Shown one piece after another: positions 3,093 to 57,784 of a stretch of DNA of 64,000 nt. The stretch is taken from IMG/VR virus record IMGVR_UViG_3300037483_000793, positions 96,001-160,000 of that record. The stretch is one strand, 5' to 3'. Each line of letters begins with the position of its first letter. The stretch's first letter is position 1. The notes under the pieces were generated by a model. It was not told the origin of the DNA, ran no database searches, and worked only from the letters and a program-made list of their open reading frames with translations. The stretch comes from a virus. Position numbers and translations under genes: made by a program.

Positions 3093-3352
3093 CCCGACTG
3101 CAGCACCTGCTCTACGTTCTCGGCGCGTGGCGTTTCAAAGGCTATCGCCGTTGGATCGGTGGCCTGTGGCGCGAGCGGTTCATCGAGGCGACGCCGCACT
3201 CGTCTGAGCGCGACTGCTGGCGATGGGAACCCTGCATGCGATTCGATTCCGGCGGTCCCGCGCGCACGTACGCGTTCGAGTCATGGCCGATCAGGCCGAC
3301 CGAGCTGCCGATCGCCCGCGCGATCGCAACTCGTGATAGGAAAAGCGACTGA
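3089..3352 (+). CDS. hypothetical protein
   Basis: Coupled ORF. Confidence 0.55.
   Translation: MTRLQHLLYVLGAWRFKGYRRWIGGLWRERFIEATPHSSERDCWRWEPCMRFDSGGPARTYAFESWPIRPTELPIARAIATRDRKSD
3310..3325. promoter_or_regulatory. GATCGC-N4-GCGATC palindrome
   Basis: GATCGCCCGCGCGATC, 27 nt upstream of the LuxR gene start (inside 3' end of previous CDS). Confidence 0.7.
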
Positions 3353-3756
3353 TGTTGGACGACAAGACCAACCCACGCGGCTTCGACGACCCCAACGACA
3401 TGGCGTTCATGCACGGCGAACGGTTCTGTGGCGCTTGCCCTGAAGGCGAGGGCAGCTATCCGAACCACTGTTTGCACGGTAGCGGTGAGAACCTTGCATG
3501 CTGCTGGTGCGGCGACATGTTCGTCAGCGATACGCGACACGCGGTCCACGGCGACAACTTCCACCCGCTCACGCCGCGCGAAGTCGATGTCGTGAGGCTG
3601 ATGGCTGACGGACTCTCGAACAAGTTGATCGCGGATCAGCTCGGCATCAGTAATCACACGACGAAGTTCCACATCAGCAACATCGCGCGCAAGCTCAAGA
3701 AGACCACACGCGCGGGTATGGCGGCTGAAGCGGTTCGCCGAGGCATCTCGTCGTGA
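3352..3756 (+). CDS. LuxR-type HTH regulator with Cys/His-rich N-terminal domain
   Basis: LTPREVDVVRLMADGLSNKLIADQLGISNHTTKFHISNIARKL is a textbook LuxR/GerE HTH. Confidence 0.9.
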   Translation: MLDDKTNPRGFDDPNDMAFMHGERFCGACPEGEGSYPNHCLHGSGENLACCWCGDMFVSDTRHAVHGDNFHPLTPREVDVVRLMADGLSNKLIADQLGISNHTTKFHISNIARKLKKTTRAGMAAEAVRRGISS

Positions 3757-3953
3757 GTACGCCGCCTGAGCTTTCCGTGCTCCAAGCGCAACTCCGTGCG
3801 CTCACCGAAAAGTATCCCGGCGAAGCGATGTTCGCGATCATGGAAGTCTTGATCGAGATTGCGTGCGGCGACAATCCCGCGCTGCGCGACATCAAGCGTC
3901 GCTGGCTCTACGTCGGCATTCTCACCAAGCTCAAGGCGAAAGGACTCACGTGA
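3753..3953 (+). CDS. hypothetical protein
   Basis: Coupled ORF. Confidence 0.55.
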   Translation: MSTPPELSVLQAQLRALTEKYPGEAMFAIMEVLIEIACGDNPALRDIKRRWLYVGILTKLKAKGLT

Positions 3954-4696
3954 TCAAGCTCGCAATCGGCCTGCCAGCGTACGGCAGCAAACTCGACGTT
4001 GGTCATGCGGCAATGTGGCTCGGGGTTGGTGCAGCGCTCTGGCAAGCGCACGACAAGATCGAGTTGGCGTGGTTCAGCGAGTACCACGTCAACGGCATTG
4101 ATTTGTGCCGCAACACGATTGTCTACGACGCGATGAAAGCGGGTTGCGACTGGGTACTCATGGTCGATGCCGATACGTTCCACCGCACGACCGGCCAGGA
4201 CGGCGTTTGCGACGCGATCGGTGACGCAGGCGTCGACATCATTCAGATGGTCCGCGACGCGGACCGTGGCCAGTACGCGCACTGGGATGGCGAGAAGCAC
4301 GTGCTGAAGTCCATCGAGATTCCCGGGCCGGAGTATGCCAAGAGCGGTATCGCGTTGATCGGCGCGCCCGTGCGCGGTCGCGGCGTGGGCGACACAGGCG
4401 TCTGCGTGCAGCACAGCGACGGTTCGCAGATTCCGCTCGATCAGCTCGCGGGTAAACTCACTCACGTCTGGCGCATCGGCGGCGCGTGTATCGCCGTGAA
4501 CCTCAAGTGGTTCCGCGAGCATTGGCGCAAGGGACCGTGGTTCGAGATGGAGCACGACTACTCGGAGCGTCCCAAGAACGCGCGCGGTGAGGACTATTCG
4601 ATCTGTGACGGAATCTGGACGCGTCAGGGCGCTGTGATTTGTGATGGCCGCTTCGTGCCCTCGCACGTCGATCGGCGTCGTCTCGTCGGTGAATAG
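3950..4696 (+). CDS. GT-A/GT2-like glycosyltransferase
   Basis: IGLPAY start strand, RNxIV...A...DWVLMVDAD (DxD), C-terminal GEDYSIC. Confidence 0.75.
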   Translation: MIKLAIGLPAYGSKLDVGHAAMWLGVGAALWQAHDKIELAWFSEYHVNGIDLCRNTIVYDAMKAGCDWVLMVDADTFHRTTGQDGVCDAIGDAGVDIIQMVRDADRGQYAHWDGEKHVLKSIEIPGPEYAKSGIALIGAPVRGRGVGDTGVCVQHSDGSQIPLDQLAGKLTHVWRIGGACIAVNLKWFREHWRKGPWFEMEHDYSERPKNARGEDYSICDGIWTRQGAVICDGRFVPSHVDRRRLVGE

Positions 4697-4699
4697 CAC

Positions 4700-4715
4700 G
4701 ATCGCAAGAGCGATC
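4700..4715. promoter_or_regulatory. GATCGC-N4-GCGATC palindrome
   Basis: GATCGCAAGAGCGATC, intergenic, upstream of the recombinase operon promoter. Confidence 0.8.
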
Positions 4716-4729
4716 GCACTTGACAACTA

Positions 4730-4775
4730 GCTCTTGACTTGTCGCAAAGCAAGAGCCATGCTCAATGTCAAGAGC
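4730..4775 (+). promoter_or_regulatory. sigma70-type promoter (TTGACT-17-CATGCT) bracketed by inverted repeat GCTCTTGAC...GTCAAGAGC
   Basis: TTGACT 4734-4739, CATGCT 4757-4762; 9-bp perfect inverted repeat 4730-4738 / 4767-4775. Confidence 0.6.
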
Positions 4776-4833
4776 GGAGAGCCGCCTAGGGACCACATGA
4801 AGACTGTACAGTTGACACCCGGAAACGACTTCT

Positions 4834-7097: not shown

Positions 7098-7099
7098 AG

Positions 7100-9947: not shown

Positions 9948-9963
9948 GATCGCACGTGCGATC
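9948..9963. promoter_or_regulatory. GATCGC-N4-GCGATC palindrome
   Basis: GATCGCACGTGCGATC (perfect), intergenic. Confidence 0.75.
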
Positions 9964-12637: not shown

Positions 12638-12653
12638 GATCGCGCGAGCGATC
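12638..12653. promoter_or_regulatory. GATCGC-N4-GCGATC palindrome
   Basis: GATCGCGCGAGCGATC between divergent genes, with TAGAAT (minus) and TAGCGT (plus) -10 hexamers on each side. Confidence 0.85.
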
Positions 12654-17380: not shown

Positions 17381-17860
17381 CTAGCACTCCGGCTTGGCGG
17401 CGCCGATAGCGAGGCCGCTGACAGCGCCCAGGACCGCGATACCGGACCCGATGAGCATCCAGTGCTTGTAGCGGGCGATGCTAGCGATGGGTTCCGTGAT
17501 GTCGGCCTGCGTGGTCGCGACGGCGACAGCTAGGCCGCCGCCAATCATGCTGCCGATCACGCCGCCGATCAGGGCGCCGAGCCCGCCACGAACGACGCGG
17601 GACGTGTTCGAGCAGGAAGAACTGCCCAGATTCTTGCGATTCCGCACACCATCGAAGTGAATCTTCGCGAGCTTCTTGTAGTAGTTTTTGTCTTCGCACA
17701 GGTGATCGAGCGCGATCTGTTGCGCGATCTTGTGATCGGTGGTGTGTTCCAGCTCGACCGCGGTACCTCGATGTAGCTGCGCAGCGTCGAAGTCCTTTGT
17801 GTGGCATCCGTGACGGCGGGCGTAACCGTTAGGTAGACGGACAGATCGTGCGGGCGTCAT
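17381..17860 (-). CDS. DUF5661-like domain fused to a two-TM hairpin
   Basis: GTAVELEHT...AQQIALDHL.ED..YY.KL; C-terminal hydrophobic hairpin ending KPEC. Confidence 0.75.
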   Translation of the reverse strand: MTPARSVRLPNGYARRHGCHTKDFDAAQLHRGTAVELEHTTDHKIAQQIALDHLCEDKNYYKKLAKIHFDGVRNRKNLGSSSCSNTSRVVRGGLGALIGGVIGSMIGGGLAVAVATTQADITEPIASIARYKHWMLIGSGIAVLGAVSGLAIGAAKPEC

Positions 17861-17877
17861 GCGCTCGACGATACCAT

Positions 17878-17893
17878 GATCGCGTGCGCGATC
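17878..17893. promoter_or_regulatory. GATCGC-N4-GCGATC palindrome
   Basis: GATCGCGTGCGCGATC; 4 nt upstream of TATCGT and leaderless ATG of 17860 (minus). Confidence 0.85.
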
Positions 17894-17895
17894 GA

Positions 17896-18126
17896 CTAGA
17901 GGGCGTCGGCGGTCGGCAGGCCGAGACCGCGCCGCATAACGTCACGCGCCGCCGACGAGATGTTGGGCTTGCGCTCGTCGTCCCGGCGGATGCCTTCGAG
18001 CTTGCGCGCGTAGGCTTCGAGGCGGTCGTGCAGTGTATCGTCGACGACAACGTGCAGATGACGAACGTGATCGCTGGCGCGACTGGTGGACCGCTTGGGA
18101 CGTTTTGGCTTCACGCGTGACATCAT
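17896..18126 (-). CDS. ribbon-helix-helix (CopG/Arc-like) DNA-binding protein
   Basis: HLHVVVDDTLHDRLEAYA...NISSAARDVMRRGL; true start may be GTG 18114. Confidence 0.65.
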   Translation of the reverse strand: MMSRVKPKRPKRSTSRASDHVRHLHVVVDDTLHDRLEAYARKLEGIRRDDERKPNISSAARDVMRRGLGLPTADAL

Positions 18127-18147: not shown

Positions 18148-18879
18148 CTAGTGTCGCTTGAGCAGGACCGCTGTGACCAGGCCGAGCACGACTGCGCTGC
18201 CAGTCGCAGCAGCGATCACGATCTTCGTCTTGCGTGACATCGGGGGCTTCGAGACGGCAATCGGCCTTGGCGCAACCGGCGTCACGTCGCCCGACTTGAG
18301 CGCGGTGATCATGTTCTCGATCGCCGCTTTGACGTCGTCGAGTGTCCCGAGCGTCGCGATCGCGATCGTCGGGTCCATCATGCGCGCGTTGTTGATGCGC
18401 GCGGTTACGTCGCTGTTGGGGACCTGTGCCGCGACCGTGCCACCTGCTGCGGCAGTTGCCTGCTGCAGCAGCGCCATCGTCCCGCCGTGGACGACCCACA
18501 ACCGGTTGTTGAAGTCGCTGTACGCGCCGGTCGAAGTGCCGACGTCGAACACGACATCAAAGCTGTGGAACGTGGTCACCATCCCAAGGAAGCGCTCGAA
18601 CACCGCGATCGCATCCTCGGCAGACATGCCTGCAGCACCGAATCCGGGCTGCATGTACATGTTCGGATCGTACATGTAGTGGTACCGCGACGTCTCCGCG
18701 TCGGGGTAGTGCTTGCCGATCACGCCCGAGTAGATGCGGCTCTGATCATAGCGCGCCGCGTGCACGGGAAACTCGGCGGCGTAGAAGTCGGGGAAGCCGT
18801 AGCGGTACGGACCCTTTCCCCACTTCGTGACCAGCTCGTTGGCGCTCTCGCCGAAGGCGCCGTAGTGCGCGATCAGCAC
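18148..18879 (-). CDS. C-terminally membrane-anchored putative virion protein
   Basis: N-terminal MLIAHYGAFG; TM IVIAAATGSAVVLGLVTAVLL + KRH. Confidence 0.75.
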   Translation of the reverse strand: MLIAHYGAFGESANELVTKWGKGPYRYGFPDFYAAEFPVHAARYDQSRIYSGVIGKHYPDAETSRYHYMYDPNMYMQPGFGAAGMSAEDAIAVFERFLGMVTTFHSFDVVFDVGTSTGAYSDFNNRLWVVHGGTMALLQQATAAAGGTVAAQVPNSDVTARINNARMMDPTIAIATLGTLDDVKAAIENMITALKSGDVTPVAPRPIAVSKPPMSRKTKIVIAAATGSAVVLGLVTAVLLKRH

Positions 18880-18882: not shown

Positions 18883-19755
18883 TTACCGGCTCCGCGAACG
18901 GCGCCGACCGAGTGCGGGCGACGTGTAGAGGAAGCCGGGCTTGTGCTTGCCCGCCGCGACCGCACCGACGGTGGTGAGGCCGACCATCGCAGCGGCGCCC
19001 ATGACGATTGGCGCCCACTTGCTGCGCTGTTCGCCTGCCTTGGGCACGACGAACGGAATCGTCGAGACGTCGAGCTGCGTCTGGATCGGAACGTTGCCGC
19101 GCTCGTTGAATTGCGACAACAGCGCCGGGAAGTGATCAGCGACGTCGTTGAGGTAGTCGGCGATCTCCGTCGAATACTTGGCGTAGATGTCCGTGCGTGT
19201 CGGCGACACGAATGCGAGGGCGATGCCCGGGTTCGGGAACTTCTTGAGCATGCCCGCGAGTGTCAGCGCGAGTACCGTGAACTGCATCGTCGAAGCACCG
19301 ACCACACCGTCGTAGCCGCTCTGCGCGCCAACTGGGCTCATGAGGTTCGAGGGCACCGTGAAGATCTGCTCGGATGTCGATCCGTCGCCGGACGGCATCT
19401 GACCTTTCATCTGCCGCCCCGCGAGACCGTTGGTCGGGATGAGGTCGATCACGCGGTCGGCAGCGCGCTGCATGTTGCGAATCGGTGCCTTGCCGCTCTC
19501 GCCAGCCTTGTTGAGCACACACTGCGGACGGTTCGCGTTGTCCTTGGTGCAGTACACGAGCCCGTCATCGGACTTGTACGTGGTGCCCGCACCAGCTGCC
19601 TGGAACACGGAAAAGTCCGATACTGCTGCGCCAAAACCGTAGCCGGTGTTGACCCCGCCGCGCATGCGGGCACGGTCCTGCGCGACCTGGATAAGAACAA
19701 GCGCGGAGGGCGCTTGCGACTGCCCAAATCCGTTGCCGTAGGAGCTGACGATCAT
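18883..19755 (-). CDS. C-terminally anchored putative virion protein with PG-binding-like motif
   Basis: MIVSSYGNGFG leader; YDGVVGAST; TM; tail LGRRRSRSR. Confidence 0.75.
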   Translation of the reverse strand: MIVSSYGNGFGQSQAPSALVLIQVAQDRARMRGGVNTGYGFGAAVSDFSVFQAAGAGTTYKSDDGLVYCTKDNANRPQCVLNKAGESGKAPIRNMQRAADRVIDLIPTNGLAGRQMKGQMPSGDGSTSEQIFTVPSNLMSPVGAQSGYDGVVGASTMQFTVLALTLAGMLKKFPNPGIALAFVSPTRTDIYAKYSTEIADYLNDVADHFPALLSQFNERGNVPIQTQLDVSTIPFVVPKAGEQRSKWAPIVMGAAAMVGLTTVGAVAAGKHKPGFLYTSPALGRRRSRSR

Positions 19756-19795
19756 GTGGTTAGCCTACCACAGAAGCGATCCCAGCAGCGATCGA

Positions 19796-20503: not shown

Positions 20504-21082
20504 CTAACCCCGTGCCTTGCGACGGTAGACGACGTAGCCGACGCCGCCGACACCGAGCACGGCCACGACGCCGCCAAGGATCCACCACAGCGTCTTGGAC
20601 TTGACCTTCGGCAGCGCCGCGGCAGCAGGTGACATGCCCGGGATCTGCACAGGTCCGATCGTGGTCGTCTGGTGCACGACTGGCGGCGGCTGGTACGCGA
20701 CAGCAGTACCGGACGGCGACGGCCGCATGCCTCCAGCCTGTTGTACGACGGCGAGGTTCTGAAGCAGGTCGATCAGCATGCCCGCGTTTGCGGCGACGGC
20801 TTCTTTCGTCGATGGCGCCGTCGCGAGACCCAGCCTCTTGATCGCTTGCAGCGCCGTTACCGTAGCGGCGCCGATGAAGCCATCGACGGTGAGCGGCTTG
20901 AAGCCTGCAGCACCGGAGAAGACGTTCGTCTTCATCTGCAGCTGCTTGAACAACGCGTCGTTCGTCGGGCCGATCGCGTAGCAGATGGCGTTGTTGCAGT
21001 TGAAGTCCTTGCCCTGTGTCAGCCCGGCGGCGCTGAAGCCGTAGCCGAAGCCGTTACCGCCGCTGTGAGCCTGAATAAGCAT
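20504..21082 (-). CDS. C-terminally anchored protein with PG_binding_1-like domain (paralog of 19796-20500)
   Basis: QGKDFNCNNAICYAIG vs QGTDFNCNSSICYAIG; VDGFIGAATVTAL; TM + RRKARG. Confidence 0.8.
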   Translation of the reverse strand: MLIQAHSGGNGFGYGFSAAGLTQGKDFNCNNAICYAIGPTNDALFKQLQMKTNVFSGAAGFKPLTVDGFIGAATVTALQAIKRLGLATAPSTKEAVAANAGMLIDLLQNLAVVQQAGGMRPSPSGTAVAYQPPPVVHQTTTIGPVQIPGMSPAAAALPKVKSKTLWWILGGVVAVLGVGGVGYVVYRRKARG

Positions 21083-21130: not shown

Positions 21131-21146
21131 GATCGCGCACGCGATC
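21131..21146. promoter_or_regulatory. GATCGC-N4-GCGATC palindrome
   Basis: GATCGCGCACGCGATC, divergent intergenic region. Confidence 0.85.
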
Positions 21147-21182: not shown

Positions 21183-21198
21183 GATCGCGTCGGCGATC
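21183..21198. promoter_or_regulatory. GATCGC-N4-GCGATC palindrome
   Basis: GATCGCGTCGGCGATC just upstream of the thioredoxin gene. Confidence 0.8.
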
Positions 21199-23155: not shown

Positions 23156-23171
23156 GATCGCGCAAGCGATC
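23156..23171. promoter_or_regulatory. GATCGC-N4-GCGATC palindrome
   Basis: GATCGCGCAAGCGATC between divergent genes. Confidence 0.85.
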
Positions 23172-25993: not shown

Positions 25994-26114
25994 GGGTGTT
26001 CTCCTCGAAGGTCGATCGCTGCTGCGACTGGTGTAGGGTCACCATCGCGCACGCACTGGATCTCCGCAAGGTTGTTCGCGTTTTTTCAGATACGAGCAGT
26101 GGTAAGTTCTACAA

Positions 26115-29155: not shown

Positions 29156-29171
29156 GATCGCTGCTGCGATC
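29156..29171. promoter_or_regulatory. GATCGC-N4-GCGATC palindrome
   Basis: GATCGCTGCTGCGATC between TAGACT and the GAGGAG RBS. Confidence 0.85.
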
Positions 29172-34435: not shown

Positions 34436-34533
34436 CGTCGGCGCTCATCGAGACGCATCTGCCGCCGCCAGAGTACTCCAGCGGTACCGAACCCGAGCAC
34501 GAATCCGATGAAGAGGAATATACCGTCGGACAT
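34432..34533 (-). CDS. 33-aa single-TM peptide
   Basis: MSDGIFLFIGFVLGFGTAGVLWRRQMRLDERRR; TGATG overlap with the vWA gene stop. Confidence 0.55.
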   Translation of the reverse strand: MSDGIFLFIGFVLGFGTAGVLWRRQMRLDERRR

Positions 34534-37010: not shown

Positions 37011-37229
37011 ATGTCCAAACGTCTGAAGAGCAACGCCCCGTCCCGTGATGTCACCCAAGTCGGTCCTGGCGATTACGTCAAGATCGGTTCGCAGTGGCAG
37101 AAGATCTCGTCGAACACGGCCCACGGCGCCGACCGCACGCCGCGGTCGTGGTCTGTACGCACCGAAAGCGGTAGCGAGCACGGGATGTTCGGCATCAATC
37201 GTTACGCGAAGGCGGAAGACCTCGAATGA
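37011..37229 (+). CDS. small hypothetical protein
   Basis: GGAGG RBS. Confidence 0.7.
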   Translation: MSKRLKSNAPSRDVTQVGPGDYVKIGSQWQKISSNTAHGADRTPRSWSVRTESGSEHGMFGINRYAKAEDLE

Positions 37230-37243
37230 TCGCGGACGCGATC
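37228..37243. promoter_or_regulatory. GATCGC-N4-GCGATC palindrome
   Basis: GATCGCGGACGCGATC exactly filling the gap between two convergent stop codons. Confidence 0.75.
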
Positions 37244-39131: not shown

Positions 39132-39147
39132 GATCGCTCGCGCGATC
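39132..39147. promoter_or_regulatory. GATCGC-N4-GCGATC palindrome
   Basis: GATCGCTCGCGCGATC upstream of the spike gene. Confidence 0.8.
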
Positions 39148-39254: not shown

Positions 39255-40004
39255 TTAGACGACGGTGCGCTTGATCAGGCCGTACTTGTACAGCTTGACG
39301 TCGGCGAAGTTGAGCGCGGTCGCGCCGTCGCTCGCCGCCTGCGCGATGCGGATCGGCGCCTCGGGCTGGAACACGCCCTTGTAGCCGAGGTTCTCACGCT
39401 CGTGCACGGGAAGCACGAGAGCGACGCGGTCACGCGGGCTCGGGACGCCGTTCTGCGCCAGCTCGAACGCGGTGTTCGTCGAGAACACGTTGTAGCCGTG
39501 TCCCTGCGGGTAGTCCTGCAGAATGCCCTGCGAGTAGAACTTCGCGTTGTACTCGTACTGGAAGAACGTCACGCGGTCCATCTGGAACAGCGTGGTCAGC
39601 GTCGGCGGATCCGACAGCGCGAACGGGGCAACGCCCGCGCCCGCACCCGGAACTGCCGCGTTGAAGTCGTCCTTCAGCGTCGGCGCGAGCGGCGAGGTGT
39701 CCGGCGCGCGCATGACGCGCGAGACCATGATGCCCCAGCCGTAGACCAGCATCTCCCAGTCCTTCGGCAGACCGGTGTCGCCGTTGCGGGGAACGTTGGT
39801 GTCGACGCGCGTCTGCACGCGCGTGCCGCCGGGGATCGGCTGCGAGCGGCCGGTCGAGAACGCTTCGAGCGGCGTGGTGATGCCGTTCGAGAACTGGACG
39901 GAGCCGTACAGCTTGTCGTCGATCCAGTCCGCGAGGGCGATCGTGCTGCCGTCGGGCAGCGTGAGGGTTGTGGTGGATGGTGCTACGCCAACTGCTCCGG
40001 CCAT
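39255..40004 (-). CDS. putative major capsid protein (jelly-roll-like)
   Basis: 249 aa, extreme GC3 bias, AAGGA RBS, own terminator; DTNxPxxGxxGLPxxWEMLVYGWGI motif; beta-rich; no TM. Confidence 0.6.
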   Translation of the reverse strand: MAGAVGVAPSTTTLTLPDGSTIALADWIDDKLYGSVQFSNGITTPLEAFSTGRSQPIPGGTRVQTRVDTNVPRNGDTGLPKDWEMLVYGWGIMVSRVMRAPDTSPLAPTLKDDFNAAVPGAGAGVAPFALSDPPTLTTLFQMDRVTFFQYEYNAKFYSQGILQDYPQGHGYNVFSTNTAFELAQNGVPSPRDRVALVLPVHERENLGYKGVFQPEAPIRIAQAASDGATALNFADVKLYKYGLIKRTVV

Positions 40005-40169
40005 GGTCTTGTCCTTGTCGCGAGAGAAACGGCTCAACGCCGTCTGTTGTGGGTGCGCCGAAGAATTCGACACGACCCTGATCGCCTGACCAGCGATCGC
40101 TGCTGCGACTCAGCCCGAAGACTCAGTCGCAAGAGCGAGCGCTGGGCGCCTTGCGCCCAACGCGCGTTA

Positions 40170-41264: not shown

Positions 41265-42104
41265 CTACCGCTGCTCCTTGCGAACGTTGACGCTCGTGTT
41301 GCCGGGCCACACGGCTTGTGGGTGTGGCCAGCGCCCTTGGACCATCGGTGCGCGCGTCATGAGTGGCGGGCGCGCCTGCGCATGCGCGTAGTTGATCGGC
41401 ACGTTGTTCGCCGCATGCATCTGCATGACCGGATGCGGTGCGAACTTCCCAGCGAGCTTCGCTTGGAAATTGCGACGAGCCCAAACGTTGTCGTTGTAGT
41501 TGAGGTTCCGGTACGCCTGTGCGTAGTCGAAGTACGGGAACGCGGGCACGTGACCGGCGCGGTTCTGCTTGGGCAGTACCGTGGTCGCCATCATCGGCGC
41601 GCCGAACTGCGCGGGCTTCGTCTGCTGTTCGGCGCGAACCGGGATCGATGCTGCGGGTGCGCCACCTGCAGGCGCGACTTGCGGTTCGCCGCCGGGGCCG
41701 CTGTTGCAGACAATCACGCGGCGCGCGCCGATCTGGATCGTGACGGTGCCGCCGCGCGCGAGTTCCTGCGCGGCCTGTGTGATCGTGCCGACGATGCCAC
41801 CACCAGGTGGCGTGTTCGGGCCGACCGTGATCTTCGAGGTGCCCATGCACACGGTGCCGGTCTTGCCGCGCGCGAACAACTGCGCGAGCTTGCCAGCCGC
41901 GTACGCGACGTCTTCGGGCGACGGATACGGCGAGACGGCCGGTCCGGCACCACGAACGCTCGCGATGAACGGGTCGATCGTGTGCCGCGCCATGTCCACC
42001 GGGCTCACCTGGCGGATCCACATCGGCTCGATGACACCCGTGCGCGTGATTGCGTCGGGACGCCAATGCGCCTGCGCGTGCATCTCGCGGGTCATGTGGA
42101 ACAT
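41265..42104 (-). CDS. hypothetical protein, putative virion component
   Basis: ATG 6 nt after TAGCTT; Gly/Pro/Ala-rich. Confidence 0.7.
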   Translation of the reverse strand: MFHMTREMHAQAHWRPDAITRTGVIEPMWIRQVSPVDMARHTIDPFIASVRGAGPAVSPYPSPEDVAYAAGKLAQLFARGKTGTVCMGTSKITVGPNTPPGGGIVGTITQAAQELARGGTVTIQIGARRVIVCNSGPGGEPQVAPAGGAPAASIPVRAEQQTKPAQFGAPMMATTVLPKQNRAGHVPAFPYFDYAQAYRNLNYNDNVWARRNFQAKLAGKFAPHPVMQMHAANNVPINYAHAQARPPLMTRAPMVQGRWPHPQAVWPGNTSVNVRKEQR

Positions 42105-42121
42105 GCATCAAAGCTACTGTC

Positions 42122-42137
42122 GATCGCGCGCGCGATC
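42122..42137. promoter_or_regulatory. GATCGC-N4-GCGATC palindrome
   Basis: GATCGCGCGCGCGATC (perfect), 5 nt upstream of TAGCTT on minus. Confidence 0.85.
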
Positions 42138-42257
42138 AAGTCGAAAGCAGTGTGATTTCGCTGAGTTAGCCTGACTATCGCTGCACACTTCTGATCATCC
42201 ATGATCACGTTGGCGCCTTGATCGCGCCCGCGACTACGCGTACGTTTGGCGAACACG

Positions 42258-42488
42258 ATGGCGAAACGGCGACGTTCACGACCGTCTTTGGGAGACGCGG
42301 CAGCAGTCCCACAGTCTGTTGAACGACCGATCACGCCGCGCGAGCTTGCGACGTGGCTCAAGGTCAGCCCAGCAACCGTTCGGCGCCGCCTCGGTGAGCT
42401 ACCGCACTTCCGTATCGGCAACCGCGTGCGGTTCATGCCGAGCGAAGTGATCGCGCATTACCGTCGCAAGCCTGACAGCGAATCGTAG
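42258..42488 (+). CDS. HTH_17/excisionase-like DNA-binding protein
   Basis: ITPRELATWLKVSPATVRRR..ELPHFRIGNRVRF. Confidence 0.8.
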   Translation: MAKRRRSRPSLGDAAAVPQSVERPITPRELATWLKVSPATVRRRLGELPHFRIGNRVRFMPSEVIAHYRRKPDSES

Positions 42489-44459: not shown

Positions 44460-44559
44460 GCCCAAAAGCTAACACGGCTACGGGCTGATGGAATAGATCG
44501 CTCCTGCGATCACCGCGACTTGAACTTCGCGGGGTACACGAGTAGCTTGAAGACGTACC

Positions 44560-44575
44560 GATCGCGCGCGCGATC
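44560..44575. promoter_or_regulatory. GATCGC-N4-GCGATC palindrome
   Basis: GATCGCGCGCGCGATC between the divergent protease and paralog-array genes. Confidence 0.85.
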
Positions 44576-45316: not shown

Positions 45317-47209
45317 ATGGGTCACCTCACGCAGCTCCACGGCCAGAGTCTGCTCGGCGGGGCAACGACCGCCGTCGGCGGCTACGTTGGCGTGAAGCAG
45401 CTGCAGGAACAGCTACGTCGGATCGCGTACGAGTTCGGCAAGCCAAGCGCCGACCCAGCACAGTATGACGGGACGTTGACGCTCGGAACGGTCATCGCGC
45501 TCGCAAACGCGGCACCGATCGTCGGCGACAAGATTCACGCAGGTGTCGGACAAGCGCTCGATGTCGTGAAGCTGATCAAGGCGCCGATCAGCAAGCTGCC
45601 GTACGGCTCGACGATCATCAACTTCATCTTGTCACCGTGGATTGTCGACAAGGCATTCAGTGCCGTGCTCGGGATCATTCGATTGATTCCTGGTGGCGGT
45701 GGCGTTGCGACGACGATCGACAACGCTATGAAGGCCGTGAAGGCAACGCTCGCGAGTGCAGCCGCACCGATTGCGGCGTCATTGCTCGTCGTCAAGAAGT
45801 CATCGGCGGCGGGGCTCGGCGAAGAAACGCGCGCGGGATTCTGCTGGATCCCGCAATACGTTCGAACCACCGACGGTGTGACCGTGCCAGGTCACTGGGA
45901 GCGTGCGCGCAGCGGTGTTCCGTGTGCGTCACCGCTACCGCCGGGCGTAGTGGCACCAACACCGACGGTCCTGAGGGTCTGTTCAGCGACCGATCAGAGT
46001 GGCTGTCCTGGTGGTGTGTTTGTCTCGAACGCTGCAACTGGCGCAATCGTACCGACGCGCGTCGCACCGCCACCACCGGCAGGAACCGTCTCGACGAGCG
46101 GCGCCGTCGTCCGCGATCACCGTACATGGCCCGCCGGTAAACTGATCGTCCCGACGGATTGGAGCCGCACGCGTACGTACAGCGGCACGGTACCGTTCGC
46201 GAGTCTTGCACCGGCCGATCAACAAGCCTGGAACGCACACAAGAACGACGGACCGTTCGGGCTGAGTACGAGCCTGATCCCGGGCAGCAGCTCGGCGTTC
46301 GGTGATCTCACCGTTCGTCGTGGTGCCATCGCGTTCAAGACGTTTCGCGGTTTCGATAACGCACGCATGGGTGCGTTCTGGGATGAGCGCAATCAAACGC
46401 TCAAGATCATCGTTGTCCCCGAGCCGTCGTCGTCGAAGTACCCATGGGACTACGCGGCAGATGCTGTGAAAGCAGCTGCTGGTGTCATTGGAGATGCCGC
46501 CAGTGCGGTTGGTGGCGCGATTGCGGACATTGCGACGTCGACGTGGAACTGGATCGCCGAGAACGCTGATGACGTGTACGAGGCCGTCAAGAAGTACGGC
46601 TGCGCGCTCGTCAACAACGACATCGTCGTCGGGTTGACAGCGGCAGGTGCAGGTATCGTCGCGTCACCGGCTGCTAGTGCCACGGTCGTGTCTGCGGCGG
46701 GTGCAGGCAAGGCTGCGTGCGCAGCTATGGAAGTCGCCGAGGTGCTCTACGCGATCTACCAGTTGATGACGATGGAGGTGCCCAAGCCGCCTCCACTCAC
46801 GACACCGACACCACCGACGACGACGGTCACGACCGCGGGTGTGCGTCTTCTGCTGCCGACGACCAAGCCGGTGGTTCCGCTCGCCAAGCCACGTTACCCG
46901 GCGGGTGCAATCACGTCGTGGGACGCCAAGCTGCGGCGCTACCGCATCGCAATCCCCGTCGGTACGCAGCTCAATGTCACCGGGTTCGGTGAAGCGCTCG
47001 GCGCCGCGGCATCGCACTTCGAAGTTGAAACGGCCGAGGTTGCGCCGCCAATCGTTTCGACGGTGCCGCTGACCGTGTTTCAGAAGCAAACGGGCACGTT
47101 GCCGCTCTACAAGAACCCGATGTTCTGGATCGCCCTCGGAACGGGCGCAGCGGCAGTCGGTGGCGGTAGTTACGTGCTGTACCGACGTCGACGTGGTTTG
47201 ACAAGGTAG
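45317..47209 (+). CDS. tail-anchored virion membrane protein, paralog 2 (630 aa)
   Basis: PG-binding-like N-domain, VPGHWER, amphipathic helices, YPAGAITSW...QKQTGTLPLYKNPMFW + TM + RRRR. Confidence 0.85.
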   Translation: MGHLTQLHGQSLLGGATTAVGGYVGVKQLQEQLRRIAYEFGKPSADPAQYDGTLTLGTVIALANAAPIVGDKIHAGVGQALDVVKLIKAPISKLPYGSTIINFILSPWIVDKAFSAVLGIIRLIPGGGGVATTIDNAMKAVKATLASAAAPIAASLLVVKKSSAAGLGEETRAGFCWIPQYVRTTDGVTVPGHWERARSGVPCASPLPPGVVAPTPTVLRVCSATDQSGCPGGVFVSNAATGAIVPTRVAPPPPAGTVSTSGAVVRDHRTWPAGKLIVPTDWSRTRTYSGTVPFASLAPADQQAWNAHKNDGPFGLSTSLIPGSSSAFGDLTVRRGAIAFKTFRGFDNARMGAFWDERNQTLKIIVVPEPSSSKYPWDYAADAVKAAAGVIGDAASAVGGAIADIATSTWNWIAENADDVYEAVKKYGCALVNNDIVVGLTAAGAGIVASPAASATVVSAAGAGKAACAAMEVAEVLYAIYQLMTMEVPKPPPLTTPTPPTTTVTTAGVRLLLPTTKPVVPLAKPRYPAGAITSWDAKLRRYRIAIPVGTQLNVTGFGEALGAAASHFEVETAEVAPPIVSTVPLTVFQKQTGTLPLYKNPMFWIALGTGAAAVGGGSYVLYRRRRGLTR

Positions 47210-47227
47210 CAACAGACCGCGTAGCTT
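47198..47227 (+). promoter_or_regulatory. sigma70-type promoter TTGACA-18-TAGCTT
   Basis: Direct reading; palindrome follows 10 nt downstream. Confidence 0.55.
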
Positions 47228-47237
47228 GAAGGAGTTG

Positions 47238-47253
47238 GATCGCGCACGCGATC
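47238..47253. promoter_or_regulatory. GATCGC-N4-GCGATC palindrome
   Basis: GATCGCGCACGCGATC between promoter and AAGGAG RBS. Confidence 0.85.
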
Positions 47254-49589: not shown

Positions 49590-49605
49590 GATCGCTCGCG
49601 CGATC
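49590..49605. promoter_or_regulatory. GATCGC-N4-GCGATC palindrome
   Basis: GATCGCTCGCGCGATC, 5 nt before TAGAGT. Confidence 0.85.
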
Positions 49606-51669: not shown

Positions 51670-51685
51670 GATCGCGCGCGCGATC
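51670..51685. promoter_or_regulatory. GATCGC-N4-GCGATC palindrome
   Basis: GATCGCGCGCGCGATC, intergenic. Confidence 0.85.
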
Positions 51686-54070: not shown

Positions 54071-54092
54071 GTAGAGTCTCCTCAGCTGGGTC

Positions 54093-54108
54093 GATCGCTC
54101 GCGCGATC
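54093..54108. promoter_or_regulatory. GATCGC-N4-GCGATC palindrome (plus variant at 54116-54131)
   Basis: GATCGCTCGCGCGATC and GATCGCGGACGCGACT, both downstream of TATAAC on the minus strand. Confidence 0.85.
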
Positions 54109-54274
54109 GATCTTCGATCGCGGACGCGACTGGTTATAGGACGAGGCCACTCTAAGGGTGTGATACATCGTTGTCAACGCAGGTTCACTACGGTATGAGG
54201 ACGAACCTCACCGGTCGAAGTGCAGTTCGTTACCTGCAACAGTCGCATGAGCGATTGACGCCGCGCGATGCGGT

Positions 54275-54736: not shown

Positions 54737-54744
54737 GTTCGCGC

Positions 54745-55113
54745 GTGAGCACGCTCATCCTCTACATGCTCCTGACGACAGCCCAGTTCTACCTGCTGTC
54801 GCGGGCCATGATCACGAAATCGTTGTGGTCACGCTACCCGGCGTGGCTCGACTACTACACCTCGTGCGCGGCCTGCTCGGGCTTCCTCTACGGCGGTGCA
54901 GTCGCACTTGCGATCGGATGGACCCAAGACCTACCGTTTTTGGGGCTATCCGGTCGTTTTTGGGTCACACCCATCATTGTCGGGCTGGGATCTATGGTGT
55001 GGACGCCAATTATGGGTGATTTCCACGTACGTGCCCTGTTACAGCTCGGTGTAGCCGGTCCGCGCAGTGATTCATCGACCGATCAACCCGATCCACCCCC
55101 AGAGAGTGTGTGA
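54745..55113 (+). CDS. membrane protein with CxxC (DUF1360-like)
   Basis: Three hydrophobic segments; TSCAACSGF at the start of a TM helix. Confidence 0.6.
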   Translation: MSTLILYMLLTTAQFYLLSRAMITKSLWSRYPAWLDYYTSCAACSGFLYGGAVALAIGWTQDLPFLGLSGRFWVTPIIVGLGSMVWTPIMGDFHVRALLQLGVAGPRSDSSTDQPDPPPESV

Positions 55114-55595: not shown

Positions 55596-55635
55596 CCAGC
55601 TGTACCGGCGCCGCAAGCGCCCGTGGCGTCGCCCG

Positions 55636-55935
55636 ATGGCGGGGCTGTTACAACCGGGCGAGGCAGTCGTGCTTGTGCTCGAACCTCCACTCGGCCCGAA
55701 CGAGCTGCCGGTCGCGCTTACACCGAACGGGGGTGACATCCTTCTACGTGACGCCGAACACGATCGGGTGACGATCCAGAACCAAACCGATCGCGTGGTC
55801 GCATACATGGTGACGGCGGTTCCGCGTGTGCTCGTGACGGCTGCAACCGTGCCATGGAAGCGGATCGCCAACGACCTCGGGCGCGCCGTGCGCGCGAGCG
55901 GCCTACTCGATCGGTTCGCAGCACTGCTTCGCTGA
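55636..55935 (+). CDS. hypothetical protein
   Basis: MAGLLQPG... start inside track ORF. Confidence 0.55.
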   Translation: MAGLLQPGEAVVLVLEPPLGPNELPVALTPNGGDILLRDAEHDRVTIQNQTDRVVAYMVTAVPRVLVTAATVPWKRIANDLGRAVRASGLLDRFAALLR

Positions 55936-55968
55936 TCGCGGCCGCGATCACTGATCGCGCGCGCGATC
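55934..55968. promoter_or_regulatory. tandem pair of GATCGC-N4-GCGATC palindromes
   Basis: GATCGCGGCCGCGATC (55934-55949) and GATCGCGCGCGCGATC (55953-55968), then GTGG-TAGGCT, upstream of the lysis genes. Confidence 0.9.
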
Positions 55969-55991
55969 GTGGTAGGCTTTCAGGCGTGAAC

Positions 55992-56285
55992 ATGGGTGCC
56001 ATCACGGATTTGTTCAAGAGCGAACGCGGCCTGTACGCGCTCGCGCTGACGGCCGCCTCGACCGTCCTCACTGCGCTCGGTCACATGACGATCGACATGT
56101 GGCAGGAGTTCAACCTCTACATCTTCGGCATCTACGTCCTCGGCAAGACGACGACGGGCACCGCTGCACTGCTCGCGAAAAAGACCGCGCCCGCGGCCGG
56201 TAGCTCGGTGTCGGTGACGATGACCGAGACTGCGACCTCGACCACACCGGCCGCGCCAGCTGAGACCGTGACGGAACCCAAGTAG
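55992..56285 (+). CDS. putative holin
   Basis: Two TM segments, hydrophilic tail, upstream of the endolysin. Confidence 0.6.
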   Translation: MGAITDLFKSERGLYALALTAASTVLTALGHMTIDMWQEFNLYIFGIYVLGKTTTGTAALLAKKTAPAAGSSVSVTMTETATSTTPAAPAETVTEPK

Positions 56286-56293
56286 GAGGCGCG

Positions 56294-56575
56294 ATGCGCG
56301 CGACGAACAAGCGGGCCCGGTCAACGAAGGGATGGCGCCGTCGCGCCCCTAAGACGAAGCGCGAACGCGACGCGCTGTACACGCGCTGTGGTGCGAAGGC
56401 CTTCCTCGATCCGCAGCGCCGCAAGTTCCCCGTCATGGCGAAGTTGGGACCATGCGTACCCGACTGCGAAGGCGTACGTGCTGCGTATGCACGCGCAAAG
56501 CAGTACAAGTACGGCAAAGCAGCGGGTAAGGCGAAGCGGCTCGGCGTGCGCGCGGCGTGCCGGTGGGCACCGTGA
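56294..56575 (+). CDS. small basic Cys protein resembling a family I recall from giant DNA viruses
   Basis: GW...P....R..L...CG.K.FL.P....FP......C...C.G..AAY.RA.QY; AGGAGG RBS. Confidence 0.75.
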   Translation: MRATNKRARSTKGWRRRAPKTKRERDALYTRCGAKAFLDPQRRKFPVMAKLGPCVPDCEGVRAAYARAKQYKYGKAAGKAKRLGVRAACRWAP

Positions 56576-56862
56576 TCGCGGCTCGACGCCGTAAACGTCA
56601 GCGCCGTCGCGGGCTCGGTCGCGAGACACGGACATCGAAGATCGACTGGTTCTACGAGACGCGTCGTCAGATTCGCGAAGCAAGTCTCGCGTTGGACAAG
56701 AAGCGTTGCATGGACGCCGCGATGCACCTGACGGAGGCACGCGACATCATCGACACGAAGGTCCAGCCGGGACGTGAGACGCGTGAGTGGTATGACGACG
56801 AAGTTGACCGGCTGAAGACGACCTGCAAGTTGAATCTCGGCGCGTCGCGGCGCCGTCGTTAG
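56572..56862 (+). CDS. basic protein with Arg-rich termini
   Basis: RRRGLGR... NLGASRRRR. Confidence 0.7.
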   Translation: MIAARRRKRQRRRGLGRETRTSKIDWFYETRRQIREASLALDKKRCMDAAMHLTEARDIIDTKVQPGRETREWYDDEVDRLKTTCKLNLGASRRRR

Positions 56863-56876
56863 CGCGAGGAGACACC

Positions 56877-57770
56877 ATGCCGATCGATCGCACTGCGGCT
56901 GAAGCGTTCAACACCAAGCAGCTCGCCAACAGCAAGCTGACCGCGAAGCACATCACAGCGCTCATCGAGTACTGGCAAGAAGGTCACGGGCTGCGCGTCG
57001 ACGGATTTGCGGGCGATCGCGAGACGATTCCATCGATCGACTGGGAACTGAGCGACGAAGCGCTGCCACCCGAAGTGCCGACGCCGTCACCCGCACACCT
57101 GCCAGCTAAGCCAACAAGGCGCGGCACGGTTGTCCCGCTGACGGATGATCAGATCGTCGCACGCGCGATGTACCTCGCGGGCAAGGCATCGATCGACACG
57201 CTCGACACGTACGTTCGCAAGGACGGCGCGCCGGAAATGTGCCCGACGATCTACTACCTGCTCAAGGGCTACAACGGCGGCAAGGACCCGACGGCAAGTG
57301 ATCCAGCTGACCGTTGGAGCAAGCAGGGCTCGACGTTCATCAACGTTACGTGTGATTGCTCGGGCGGCAATTCATGGATGGGTGGCCACGACCGATTCCT
57401 CGAAGATCTCATGCGGCCGAGCGTCGGCTACGGCGGCTGGTTCAACACCGACAGCAAGATCCTCGACGCGACATTGCCGCTCAAGCCGGGTGAGAAGCGC
57501 TGTTTCGAAGCGGACTCGCTACCGAACCGTGGACGCATCATCGTCTGCAAGTCGGGATCGCCCGGTCACAAGGTCGGCCACGAAGGGCGCATCACCGGCT
57601 ATCGCGGCGACATCACCAAGTTCGATCCGAAGAACCCACTGCACTGGGATCTGATCGACGTCGTCGATGTCTCGTCGCGGGGCGCAGGCAAACGCGCCAA
57701 CAACCTGCGAACCGGCCGTGGTTGGTCCGGGACCGGCGCGTTGTTCCTCAAGTTCGTCGGCAAGCACTGA
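56877..57770 (+). CDS. endolysin: PG-binding domain plus NlpC/P60-like amidase/peptidase
   Basis: WQEGHGLRVDGFAG; CDCSG (Cys) and GHEG (His). Confidence 0.8.
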   Translation: MPIDRTAAEAFNTKQLANSKLTAKHITALIEYWQEGHGLRVDGFAGDRETIPSIDWELSDEALPPEVPTPSPAHLPAKPTRRGTVVPLTDDQIVARAMYLAGKASIDTLDTYVRKDGAPEMCPTIYYLLKGYNGGKDPTASDPADRWSKQGSTFINVTCDCSGGNSWMGGHDRFLEDLMRPSVGYGGWFNTDSKILDATLPLKPGEKRCFEADSLPNRGRIIVCKSGSPGHKVGHEGRITGYRGDITKFDPKNPLHWDLIDVVDVSSRGAGKRANNLRTGRGWSGTGALFLKFVGKH

Positions 57771-57784
57771 TCGCTCACGCGATC
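57769..57784. promoter_or_regulatory. GATCGC-N4-GCGATC palindrome
   Basis: GATCGCTCACGCGATC at the endolysin stop. Confidence 0.8.

What the first reader, a model, noticed from the sequence alone, without database searches (positions are those of the whole stretch)
3310..57784. Genome-wide 16-bp palindrome GATCGC-N4-GCGATC (20 exact copies) at gene boundaries
Seen: exact copies start at 3310, 4700, 9948, 12638, 17878, 21131, 21183, 23156, 29156, 37228, 39132, 42122, 44560, 47238, 49590, 51670, 54093, 55934, 55953 and 57769. One-arm variants (mostly ...GCGACT) occur at 9884, 18069, 19778, 26014, 40095, 42220 and 54116. Nineteen of the 20 lie in or at the edge of the small intergenic fraction. 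A rough independent-base expectation at about 64% GC is about 0.01 copies per window (ignores CGATCG bias). Some sit 4-6 nt upstream of a TAnnnT hexamer and others just downstream of it; one fills the gap between convergent stops. Inference: a master operator or activator site (late-gene switch) or nucleoid/packaging organising sites. Each arm carries GATC, so Dam-type methylation could gate binding.
Basis: partly seen in the sequence, partly recalled or inferred. Interest (0 to 1): 0.88.

Follow-up and report, generated by a model that had tools for sequence, protein, structure and literature searches.

The report
Promoter-embedded palindromic operator of a phage
A 16-base palindrome is built into about 45 promoters of an uncultured ~200-kb phage and its close relatives, and it is almost certainly the docking site of one phage regulator that switches many genes together; this kind of control is known in other phages, here in a new sequence and phage group.

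Summary
Other spacers give 0-1 copies, and 34 of 44 copies lie in the ~9% non-coding DNA.

Most copies end 3-5 nt before a TGnTAnnnT extended -10 box, which lies 5-9 nt before the start codon. These are leaderless promoters with no -35. A smaller class lies at about +4 to +50, downstream of complete -35/-10 promoters.

Close relatives keep the arms 100% identical at orthologous promoters while flanks drift. One relative (G011) lacks both candidate regulators and nearly all sites, yet keeps the core promoters.

Best reading: the site binds a phage-encoded dimeric regulator (~0.85). It is more likely a repressor/operator (~0.5) than a P1-Lpa-like activator or dual-function factor (~0.3). Two candidate binders cannot be separated: a Cys/His-rich LuxR/GerE-type protein (w3352-3756) and a small HTH_17 protein outside the window. 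A Dam-family methylase is encoded, but methylation gating is untested.

This scan found the same motif before in this genome and in related genomes. It is a new member of a known kind.

The parts
3310..3325 (.). Perfect site, 26 nt before the start of the GerE-type regulator gene and inside the 3' end of the upstream ORF.
   Evidence: Not present before the G2 ortholog.
3352..3756 (+). Candidate binder: a 134-aa protein with a Cys/His-rich N-domain and a LuxR/GerE-type HTH.
   Evidence: Pfam GerE E=8e-18. Nearest PDB match is the NarL C-terminal domain, 1JE8. Present in G0 and G2, deleted at the syntenic locus in G011, and absent from 8 distant relatives. Contigs encoding homologs all carry the palindrome.
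4700..4715 (.). Perfect site 3 nt after an upstream stop codon and just upstream of TTGACA/TCTTGAC -35 elements.
9948..9963 (.). Perfect site in a 240-nt intergenic gap. No clear promoter partner.
12638..12653 (.). Perfect site between divergent leaderless promoters. It is 6 nt from TAGCGT on the + side and 17 nt from TAGAAT on the - side.
   Evidence: A near-copy is kept in G2, and perfect copies in L172 and L176.
17878..17893 (.). Class A site: site, 4 nt, TATCGT, 7 nt, ATG of gene 17381-17860 (-).
   Evidence: Conserved in G2 with the offset shifted to 7.
18069..18084 (-). AGTCGC-N4-GCGATC variant inside a called CDS.
18202..18217 (+). AGTCGC-N4-GCGATC variant inside a called CDS.
19778..19793 (.). 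One-mismatch site (GATCCC arm), 10 nt upstream of TGgTAGGCT of leaderless gene 18883-19755 (-).
21131..21146 (.). Perfect site, one of a divergent pair, 48 nt upstream of gene 20504-21082 (-).
21183..21198 (.). Perfect site, the other of the divergent pair, 5 nt before TAGGAT and upstream of gene 21208 (+).
23156..23171 (.). Perfect site 15 nt upstream of TGgTAGGAT on the - side, and upstream of a TTGACC-17-TACATT promoter on the + side.
   Evidence: Conserved in G1 and G2.
26014..26029 (-). AGTCGC variant in the 5'-UTR position: site, 20 nt with GAGGAG, then ATG of gene 25457-25993 (-).
   Evidence: Identical variant in G1.
29156..29171 (.). Class B site: TAGACT, 7 nt, site, GAGGAG, ATG of gene 29186 (+).
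   Evidence: Conserved in G2.
37228..37243 (.). Perfect site overlapping both stop codons of a convergent gene pair.
   Evidence: Not present at the same junction in G1.
39132..39147 (.). Class A site: site, 4-5 nt, TGtTATCTT, 7 nt, ATG of the BclA_C/C1q-domain gene (-).
40095..40110 (-). AGTCGC variant about 90 nt upstream of the high-codon-bias gene 39255-40004 (-).
42122..42137 (.). Class A site: site, 5 nt, TAGCTT, 6 nt, ATG of gene 41265-42104 (-).
   Evidence: G1 and G2 have the AGTCGC variant here, and G011 has a decayed remnant.
42220..42235 (-). AGTCGC variant further upstream in the same intergenic region.
42246..42488 (+). HTH_17 protein (HTH_17b), a less likely binder.
   Evidence: Pfam E=1e-7. 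A homolog persists in G011, which lacks the sites.
44496..44511 (.).
   Evidence: The offset is 6 in G1 and 34 in G2.
44560..44575 (.). Class B site: TTGAAC-17-TAGCTT, 11 nt, site, GGAG, ATG of gene 44590 (+).
   Evidence: Conserved in G1 and G2.
47198..47253 (+). Complete promoter TTGACA-18-TAGCTT followed 10 nt later by the perfect site 47238-47253 (class B), then GGAG and ATG at 47277.
   Evidence: Conserved in G1 and G2.
49590..49605 (.). Class A site: site, 5 nt, TGaTAGAGT, 9 nt, ATG at 49626 (+).
   Evidence: Conserved in G1.
51670..51685 (.). Perfect site 3 nt after the stop of the 793-aa gene and 23 nt upstream of TGgTACGTT of the next leaderless gene (-).
54093..54177 (-). Promoter of the 793-aa gene: TTGACA-17-TAGAGT, then the AGTCGC variant (54116-54131) and the perfect site (54093-54108) in the 5' UTR, then GAGGAG and ATG at 54070.
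   Evidence: The layout is conserved in G1, and the variant arm in G2. The G011 ortholog keeps a -35/-10 pair but has no sites.
54900..54915 (+). AGTCGC-N4-GCGATC variant inside a called CDS.
55934..55968 (.). Tandem perfect sites (55934 and 55953, centres 19 bp apart), then 4 nt, TGgTAGGCT, 7 nt, GTG at 55986 (+).
   Evidence: Tandem in G1, single in G2.
57769..57784 (.). Perfect site overlapping the stop codon of gene 56877-57770, about 50 nt upstream of a TCTTGAC-type promoter.

Best explanation
GATCGC-N4-GCGATC is the double-stranded DNA binding site of one phage-encoded, two-fold-symmetric (dimeric) transcription regulator. The site is built into about 45-60 promoters of this phage and its close relatives.

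At most sites it spans about -32 to -17. This is the position of the missing -35 element and spacer of leaderless, extended -10 promoters. At a minority it lies at about +4 to +50 of complete -35/-10 promoters, or directly after the stop codon of the upstream gene.

The most likely action is repression. A bound dimer would occlude host RNA polymerase or block its passage, in the manner of an operator or stoperator. That would hold a large set of non-early genes off until the regulator is inactivated or titrated.

Shown: the statistics, the geometry, the conservation, and loss of the sites together with two regulators in one relative. Inferred: that a protein binds the site, the sign of regulation, and the identity of the binder. 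The binder is either the Cys/His-rich LuxR/GerE-type protein at w3352-3756 or the 68-aa HTH_17 protein at genome 4241-4447.
For: 1. Chance is excluded and the spacing is exact.

2. Exact copies (44) outnumber one-mismatch copies (36, only 10 of them intergenic). The arms are invariant and the 4-bp centre is variable with no strand bias. This fits a symmetric protein reading two half-sites 10 bp apart.

3. TAnnnT lies 3-6 nt after the site at 17 sites against ~1 expected. Across three genomes, 28 of 100 perfect sites have this offset. The leaderless class is real without any prior: 31 genes against ~2 expected.

4. In orthologous promoters of G1 and G2 the arms are 100% identical, while flanks are 40-55% identical. 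Presence is co-inherited, with p=2e-9 and 1e-10.

5. Points favouring repression:
- Sites lie downstream of complete TTGACA-17/18-TAnnnT promoters, and in G2 one lies inside a -35/-10 spacer.
- Offsets shift between orthologs: 4 to 7, 9 to 4 to 9, and 24 to 6 to 34.
- Promoters with the site are not weaker in -10 or -35 score, and they are richer in the TG extension (32/47 vs 21/82), so they should work unaided.
- Relative G011 is closer to G0 than G2 is, yet has lost nearly all sites. It keeps the -10 boxes, leaderless starts and -35/-10 pairs, and has no replacement motif.

6. Both candidate regulators are present where the motif is and absent at their syntenic loci in G011. The GerE-type domain matches the NarL C-terminal domain. 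From memory, that domain binds a 16-bp 7-2-7 palindrome as a dimer.
Against: No binding or expression data exist, and the host is unknown.

The dominant geometry is a palindrome centred near -24 in front of a -10 box with no -35. That is also the architecture of P1 late promoters, whose inverted repeat binds the activator Lpa (PMC10695390; the -22 position is from memory). It also recalls T4 MotA-dependent middle promoters.

The GerE-type gene lies in an early-looking gene array, which fits an early-made activator. An early-made repressor would need a separate relief mechanism.

Offsets show weak humps at about 4-5, 12-17 and 23-26 nt. This could reflect helical phasing, as expected for an activator.

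G011 is only 59% complete. No sign of lysogeny was found, so an immunity-repressor role is unsupported.
Confidence: 0.5

Rival explanations
1. The site binds an activator and replaces the -35 element. This would work like the P1 Lpa late promoters or T4 MotA middle promoters. An early-made phage factor bound at about -32 to -17 would recruit or re-target host RNA polymerase to extended -10, leaderless promoters. At the 5'-UTR sites the same factor could repress, making it dual-function.
For: The dominant fixed geometry, with the site 3-5 nt before TGnTAnnnT and no -35. The P1 precedent. The GerE-type gene sits in an array headed by a TCTTGAC -35 promoter, which looks early. Weak ~10-bp humps in the offset distribution. 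The statement in PMC10695390 that late genes of well-studied phages are under positive control.
Against: Promoters with the site have core elements as good as or better than those without it. G011 lost the sites and both regulators but kept the same core promoters with no substitute motif. That is hard to reconcile with an essential activator of more than 25 promoters. Offsets drift by non-integral helical turns between orthologs. Many sites lie at +4 to +50 of complete promoters, or at gene ends.
Confidence: 0.3
2. The element acts as an RNA hairpin. Possible roles are a 5'-UTR stabiliser, a processing or RNA-binding-protein site, or a terminator or attenuator.
For: The element can form a 6-bp stem of about -7.6 kcal/mol. 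Class B copies would lie near the 5' end of the mRNA. The AGTCGC variant is oriented so that a G-U pair is kept.
Against: Among ~100 sites in three genomes there are no compensatory changes. The variants (AGTCGC, GATCCC) break pairing on one arm only. The loop is variable while the stem sequence is invariant. Class A copies lie upstream of the predicted transcription start of the gene they precede. Only 1 of 44 sites has a nearby T-run. There is no strand bias in the centre bases.
Confidence: 0.05
3. The site binds a host-encoded regulator that the phage has borrowed, or serves a non-transcriptional role such as nucleoid organisation, packaging, or recombination hot spots for module shuffling.
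For: The host is unknown, so its regulons cannot be checked. Repeats of this kind can promote recombination, as noted for the Cluster O repeats (PMC4351075).
Against: The motif is confined to one sub-clade. It is lost in a close relative together with two phage regulators. Its tight geometry relative to -10 boxes and start codons is not expected for packaging or nucleoid sites.
Confidence: 0.07

Closest known systems
Cluster O mycobacteriophage 17-bp dyad repeat TGTTCGG-N3-CCGAACA (PMC4351075)
   Same: There are more than 30 copies per genome. The arms are invariant and the centre variable. Few mismatch copies exist. Many copies lie in short intergenic gaps and some inside genes. Positions are conserved among relatives, and the site is absent from other phages. 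The authors also inferred a dimeric regulator.
   Different: The sequence and arm/spacer lengths differ (7-N3-7 vs 6-N4-6). In Cluster O most sites are not near predicted promoters, and the authors doubted a transcriptional role. Here most sites have a fixed position relative to a -10 box.
Phage P1 late promoters with the Lpa-binding inverted repeat (PMC10695390)
   Same: A short inverted repeat is combined with a -10 box in promoters lacking a -35. It is repeated at many transcription units, and one phage factor controls them all.
   Different: Lpa is an essential activator, and P1 has 11 sites at fixed spacing. Here there are 44 sites per genome with variable offsets. Many lie in 5' UTRs of complete promoters. 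A close relative has lost them all without changing its core promoters. No Lpa homolog was looked for.
Mycobacteriophage L5 gp71 stoperators and phiC31 repressor CIR sites (from memory; these papers are not in the library)
   Same: Dozens of copies of one repressor site are spread through a phage genome. They lie at promoters and in short gaps between genes, so that one protein silences many transcription units and blocks read-through.
   Different: Stoperators are asymmetric 13-mers that act in an orientation-dependent way. Both systems belong to temperate phages and serve immunity. Here the site is a perfect palindrome and no sign of lysogeny was found.
NarL/GerE-family dimers on 16-bp palindromes (NarL C-terminal domain, PDB 1JE8)
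   Same: The candidate binder has a complete GerE-type four-helix domain, whose best PDB match is the NarL C-terminal domain. A 16-bp two-fold site fits the family's usual binding mode.
   Different: There is no receiver domain. Instead the N-terminus is Cys/His-rich with a CCWC motif. The residues of the recognition helix differ. Binding to this site is untested.

Membership tests
Dispersed phage regulator-binding palindrome (Cluster O type) | Tens of copies per genome, with invariant arms and a variable centre. | tested here: met
   There are 44, 20 and 36 copies in G0, G1 and G2. Spacing is N4 only. Arms are 100% identical and the centre variable.
Dispersed phage regulator-binding palindrome (Cluster O type) | Positions conserved among related phages, and the site absent elsewhere. 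| tested here: met
   Presence is co-inherited between orthologs, with p about 1e-9 to 1e-10. There are no copies in 11 distant relatives.
Operator of a phage repressor (stoperator / CIR type) | Sites overlap core promoters or lie just downstream of start sites. | tested here: met
   Class A sites span about -32 to -17. Class B sites lie at about +4 to +50 of TTGACA-17/18-TAnnnT promoters. Start sites are predicted, not mapped.
Operator of a phage repressor (stoperator / CIR type) | Asymmetric site that acts in one orientation (stoperators). | tested here: not met
   The site is a perfect palindrome with no strand bias in its centre. Only the minor AGTCGC variant is oriented.
Operator of a phage repressor (stoperator / CIR type) | Temperate phage whose immunity repressor binds the sites. 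| tested here: inconclusive
   Tyrosine-recombinase-family genes are present. No prophage copy of the regulator family exists in ~186,000 bacterial species genomes. No HTH_3 (cI-type) protein was found.
P1 Lpa-type late promoter | Inverted repeat at fixed spacing upstream of a -10 box, with no -35. | tested here: inconclusive
   Of 100 perfect sites, 28 sit 3-6 nt before a leaderless-type -10 box. The other sites are at other offsets, in 5' UTRs or at gene ends, and offsets shift between orthologs.
P1 Lpa-type late promoter | Promoters depend on the activator. | not testable with these tools
   Indirect evidence against dependence: core elements are as strong as in site-free promoters, and G011 keeps the promoters without the sites.
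Intrinsic terminator / REP-like RNA hairpin | Stem kept by compensatory changes, with a T-run after the stem for terminators. | tested here: not met
   Variants change one arm only. Only 1 of 44 sites has a T-run. The hairpin energy is -7.6 kcal/mol.
LuxR/GerE-type HTH regulator (candidate binder, w3352-3756) | GerE four-helix DNA-binding domain. | tested here: met
   Pfam PF00196 E=8e-18, covering positions 2-53 of 57. The profile matches the NarL C-terminal domain 1JE8 at E=5e-15, through the last helix.
LuxR/GerE-type HTH regulator (candidate binder, w3352-3756) | Binds this palindrome. | not testable with these tools
   Only co-occurrence is available. HTH_17a shows the same pattern.
Dam-methylation-gated regulatory site | GATC within the site, and a GATC methyltransferase present. 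| tested here: inconclusive
   Each site has two GATC. A D12-class methyltransferase is encoded at genome 20565-21467 (PF02086, E=1.5e-42). Its specificity is unknown. It persists in G011 without the sites. GATC is at its Markov expectation.

The most novel reading that the evidence does not exclude
The binder is the Cys/His-rich LuxR-type protein, and its metal- or redox-sensing N-domain sets the state of about 50 promoter-embedded operators at once. The two GATC sites in every operator would make binding depend on methylation by the phage's own Dam-family enzyme. Expression of the non-early genes would then be tied both to host physiology and to the replication or methylation state of the phage DNA. 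That would be a sensor-coupled, epigenetically gated global switch in a large lytic phage.
Probability: 0.1. Interest if true: 0.7.

Novelty: new member of a known kind. Interest (0 to 1): 0.42.

Why it matters
The motif gives a ready-made map of about 45 transcription units in a ~200-kb phage whose genes are almost all of unknown function. It also reveals a clear promoter grammar: leaderless starts, an extended -10 box, and the palindrome in place of a -35. Two testable candidate regulators are identified, and one relative that lost the system serves as a natural knock-out. If the regulator is the Cys/His-rich LuxR-type protein, the system would link a sensor domain to genome-wide phage gene control. 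Otherwise this is one more example of a familiar phage strategy.

Tried and rejected
- Megablast of 20 kb of the window against GenBank phages found nothing. The conserved 777-aa protein is a vWA-type protein shared with Ackermannviridae at ~34% identity, so there is no close cultured relative.
- Pfam and PHROGs gave no functions for the genes behind the sites.
- Host search failed. The CRISPR repeat of G011 and the GerE-family alignment both found nothing in bacterial genomes.
- A scan of viral contigs for CGATCGC-N4-GCGATCG was swamped by single chance hits. It only added G015 indirectly.
- An apparent replacement palindrome in G011 (CCCGATC-N7-GATCGGG, 18 copies) is a CRISPR array. An enriched intergenic 7-mer there is a tandem repeat.
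- I tried to link recognition-helix variants of the GerE-type protein to a changed palindrome. The contigs were too short and promoter-poor to tell.
- Phyletic patterns could not separate the GerE-type protein from HTH_17a.
- PadR-like and RelB-like hits are weak and absent from G2.
- Rejected readings: terminator, RNA hairpin, and packaging or nucleoid sites (see the rival explanations).

Full report
OBSERVATION

The pattern GATCGC-N4-GCGATC occurs 21 times in the window. All 20 listed coordinates are right, and the copy at 44496 was missed. One hundred dinucleotide-preserving shuffles give a mean of 0.06 and never more than one copy.

The window is bases 96001-160000 of a 195,792-bp viral record with 62% GC. 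The record holds 44 copies, and none of the reversed control pattern.

The hexamers themselves are common (355 and 338 copies), and GATC sits at its maximal-order Markov expectation (2064 observed, 1994 expected). Hexamer bias therefore predicts only ~0.5 palindromes per genome. That agrees with the 0-1 copies seen at every other spacer from 0 to 12, against 44 at spacer 4.

Exact copies (44) outnumber one-mismatch copies (36, of which 10 are intergenic). The sequence is therefore sharply constrained.

With a codon-usage gene call of my own (91% coding), 34 of 44 copies are intergenic.

ANATOMY

I oriented each intergenic copy toward its nearest downstream start codon. Most then read: palindrome, 3-5 nt, TGnTAnnnT, 5-9 nt, ATG or GTG. 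TAnnnT falls 3-6 nt after the palindrome at 17 sites where about one is expected.

These are leaderless promoters. Even with a gene call that carried no leaderless prior, TAnnnT lies 5-7 nt before the start codon at 31 genes against ~2 expected. This arrangement is almost mutually exclusive with a Shine-Dalgarno motif.

In this class A the palindrome spans roughly -32 to -17. That is the place of a -35 element and spacer, and no -35 is present.

A smaller class B has the palindrome downstream of a complete promoter, followed by a Shine-Dalgarno motif and the start codon. Examples:
- TTGACA-18-TAGCTT, 10 nt, then the site at w47238.
- TTGAAC-17-TAGCTT before the site at w44560.
- TTGACA-17-TAGAGT followed by two sites (w54116 and w54093) in the 5' UTR of the 793-aa gene.

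Divergent gene pairs carry two copies, one per direction. A few copies sit directly after, or overlap, the stop codon of the upstream gene. One (w37228) lies between convergent stops.

An asymmetric variant, AGTCGC-N4-GCGATC, recurs 9, 9 and 7 times in three genomes. It is conserved at orthologous positions, and its AGTC arm is on the promoter side.

A second, palindrome-free promoter family, cTCTTGAC(t/a)tGTC, heads the long co-directional arrays of small genes (about 11 copies). The palindrome is nearly absent from those arrays.

RELATIVES

A conserved 777-aa protein retrieved 13 related viral contigs.

The two closest records have the same palindrome, again at N4 only. G001 has 20 copies in 91 kb, with median ortholog identity 71%. 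G002 has 36 copies in 221 kb, at 56% identity. G015, a 31-kb fragment of a further relative reached through HTH_17a, has four copies. Eleven more distant relatives have none.

At orthologous promoters the arms are 100% identical. Flanks are 40-55% identical and the centre 60-80% (30 pairs). Presence upstream of a gene is co-inherited, with Fisher p=2e-9 and 1e-10.

The distance to the -10 box shifts between orthologs: 4 to 7, 9 to 4 to 9, and 24 to 6 to 34 nt. In one case the site lies at about +4 in G0 but inside the -35/-10 spacer in G2.

G011 is the most informative relative. It is a 95-kb record with median ortholog identity 65%, so it is closer to G0 than G2 is. It has a single copy. Its orthologous promoters keep their -10 boxes, TG extensions, leaderless starts or -35/-10 pairs, but the palindrome is gone or visibly decayed. 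It has no substitute dispersed motif. Its one recurrent palindrome is a CRISPR array, and its enriched intergenic 7-mer is a tandem repeat.

WHO BINDS

A Pfam sweep of all proteins up to 420 aa found no sigma factor, no RNA polymerase and no cI/Cro-type HTH. It found only a few DNA-binding domains.

Two proteins share the motif's distribution:
- A 134-aa LuxR/GerE-type protein at w3352-3756. It is present in G0 and G2. At the syntenic locus in G011 only 18 nt separate the flanking orthologs. It is absent from eight distant relatives.
- A 68-aa HTH_17 protein at genome 4241-4447. It is present in G0, G1, G2 and G015. It is absent from its syntenic gap in G011 and from the distant relatives.

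The HTH_17 protein at w42246 and the Fis-like protein at w55113 persist in G011, so they are less likely binders.

The GerE-type protein has about 37 metagenomic homologs at 57-77% identity. The four independent long contigs that encode one carry 1-6 perfect N4 copies within 10 kb. These contigs belong to the same clade, so this is consistency, not independent proof.

The protein's N-domain has ten invariant Cys/His positions, including a CCWC motif. T103 and H107 of the recognition helix are invariant. The best solved match is the NarL C-terminal domain, 1JE8. From memory, that domain binds a 16-bp 7-2-7 palindrome as a dimer. I therefore favour this protein slightly over the HTH_17 protein, but the two cannot be separated with the data in hand.

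MECHANISM

Several features point to a symmetric protein dimer reading double-stranded DNA:
- invariant arms 10 bp apart, centre to centre;
- a variable centre with no strand bias;
- one-arm variants and no compensatory changes;
- position upstream of the predicted transcription start at most promoters.

I put this reading at about 0.85. An RNA hairpin is unlikely. The stem is modest (-7.6 kcal/mol), a T-run follows only 1 of 44 sites, and no covariation is seen.

The sign of regulation is not settled.

Evidence for repression:
- sites downstream of, or inside, complete promoters;
- offsets that drift between orthologs;
- core elements that are no weaker than in site-free leaderless promoters. 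The -10 and -35 scores are equal, and the TG extension is present in 32/47 against 21/82;
- above all, the natural loss in G011, which is easy for a repressor and hard for an activator needed at more than 25 promoters.

Evidence for activation:
- The dominant geometry matches P1 late promoters, whose inverted repeat binds the essential activator Lpa (PMC10695390).
- The GerE-type gene lies in an early-looking array.
- The offsets show weak humps at 4-5, 12-17 and 23-26 nt.

My estimates are about 0.5 for repressor/operator, including roadblock action at gene ends, and about 0.3 for activator or dual function.

DAM METHYLATION

Each site holds two GATC, and the phage encodes a D12-class methyltransferase. 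The enzyme also persists in G011, and GATC shows no genome-wide selection. Methylation gating is possible but untested.

COMPARISON AND NOVELTY

The closest described case is the 17-bp dyad repeat of Cluster O mycobacteriophages. It has the same statistics and the same inference of a dimeric binder. There, however, most copies are not near promoters (PMC4351075). P1 Lpa sites, L5 stoperators and phiC31 CIR sites are mechanistic relatives.

This scan had already noted the same palindrome in an overlapping window of this genome and in three related genomes.

The finding is a real and well-defined regulon signal, but of a known kind.

Noticed in passing
window 1980, 4732, 57835, 10034(-); also genome 42894, 47825, 54853, 88800, 160157, 165454, 186389: A second promoter family, cTCTTGAC(t/a)tGTC, with a -35-type element. 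About 11 copies exist, mostly at the heads of long co-directional arrays of small genes. These are probably early, host-type promoters.
   Followed up: partly
whole genome; e.g. window 17861-17877, 42105-42121, 55969-55985: A substantial leaderless gene class. TAnnnT lies 5-7 nt before the start codon at 31 of 341 genes (~2 expected), almost exclusive of Shine-Dalgarno motifs. This is a clue to the host's type of translation and transcription.
   Followed up: partly
window 3352-3756: The LuxR/GerE-type protein has an N-terminal domain with ten invariant Cys/His positions (including CCWC) across 26 homologs. It is probably a metal- or Fe-S-binding sensor. The family is seen only in phage-like metagenomic contigs.
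   Followed up: partly
G011 (L050), record bases 93561-94967: A CRISPR-like array at the contig end. It has at least 18 repeats of about 36 nt (GTCGTTACGCTTGCCCGATCAGCCGACGATCGGGAC) with spacers of ~24-37 nt. Two spacers recur. No exact repeat match was found in bacterial genomes.
   Followed up: partly
G011 (L047), record bases about 34260-34520: A tandem array of a 10-11-bp unit (GGCTGGCCCC), preceded by repeats of GACGTCGACGGTAGAG.
   Followed up: no
genome 20565-21467 (L039), outside the window: A D12-class (Dam-family) N6-adenine DNA methyltransferase, conserved in G0, G1, G2 and G011.
   Followed up: partly
genome 4448-4990 (L038), outside the window: A 445-nt divergent intergenic region next to HTH_17a, rich in GATCGC half-sites. 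The perfect palindrome at 4966 is conserved in G1, G2, G015 and G016 although it falls inside the called 5' end of a 542-aa gene. That gene's start may be mis-called.
   Followed up: partly
window 34533-36866 (-): The 777-aa protein with the highest codon bias is not a capsid protein by homology. It matches a conserved protein (phrog_2426) that some Ackermannviridae records annotate as vWA-domain protein, at ~34% identity.
   Followed up: no
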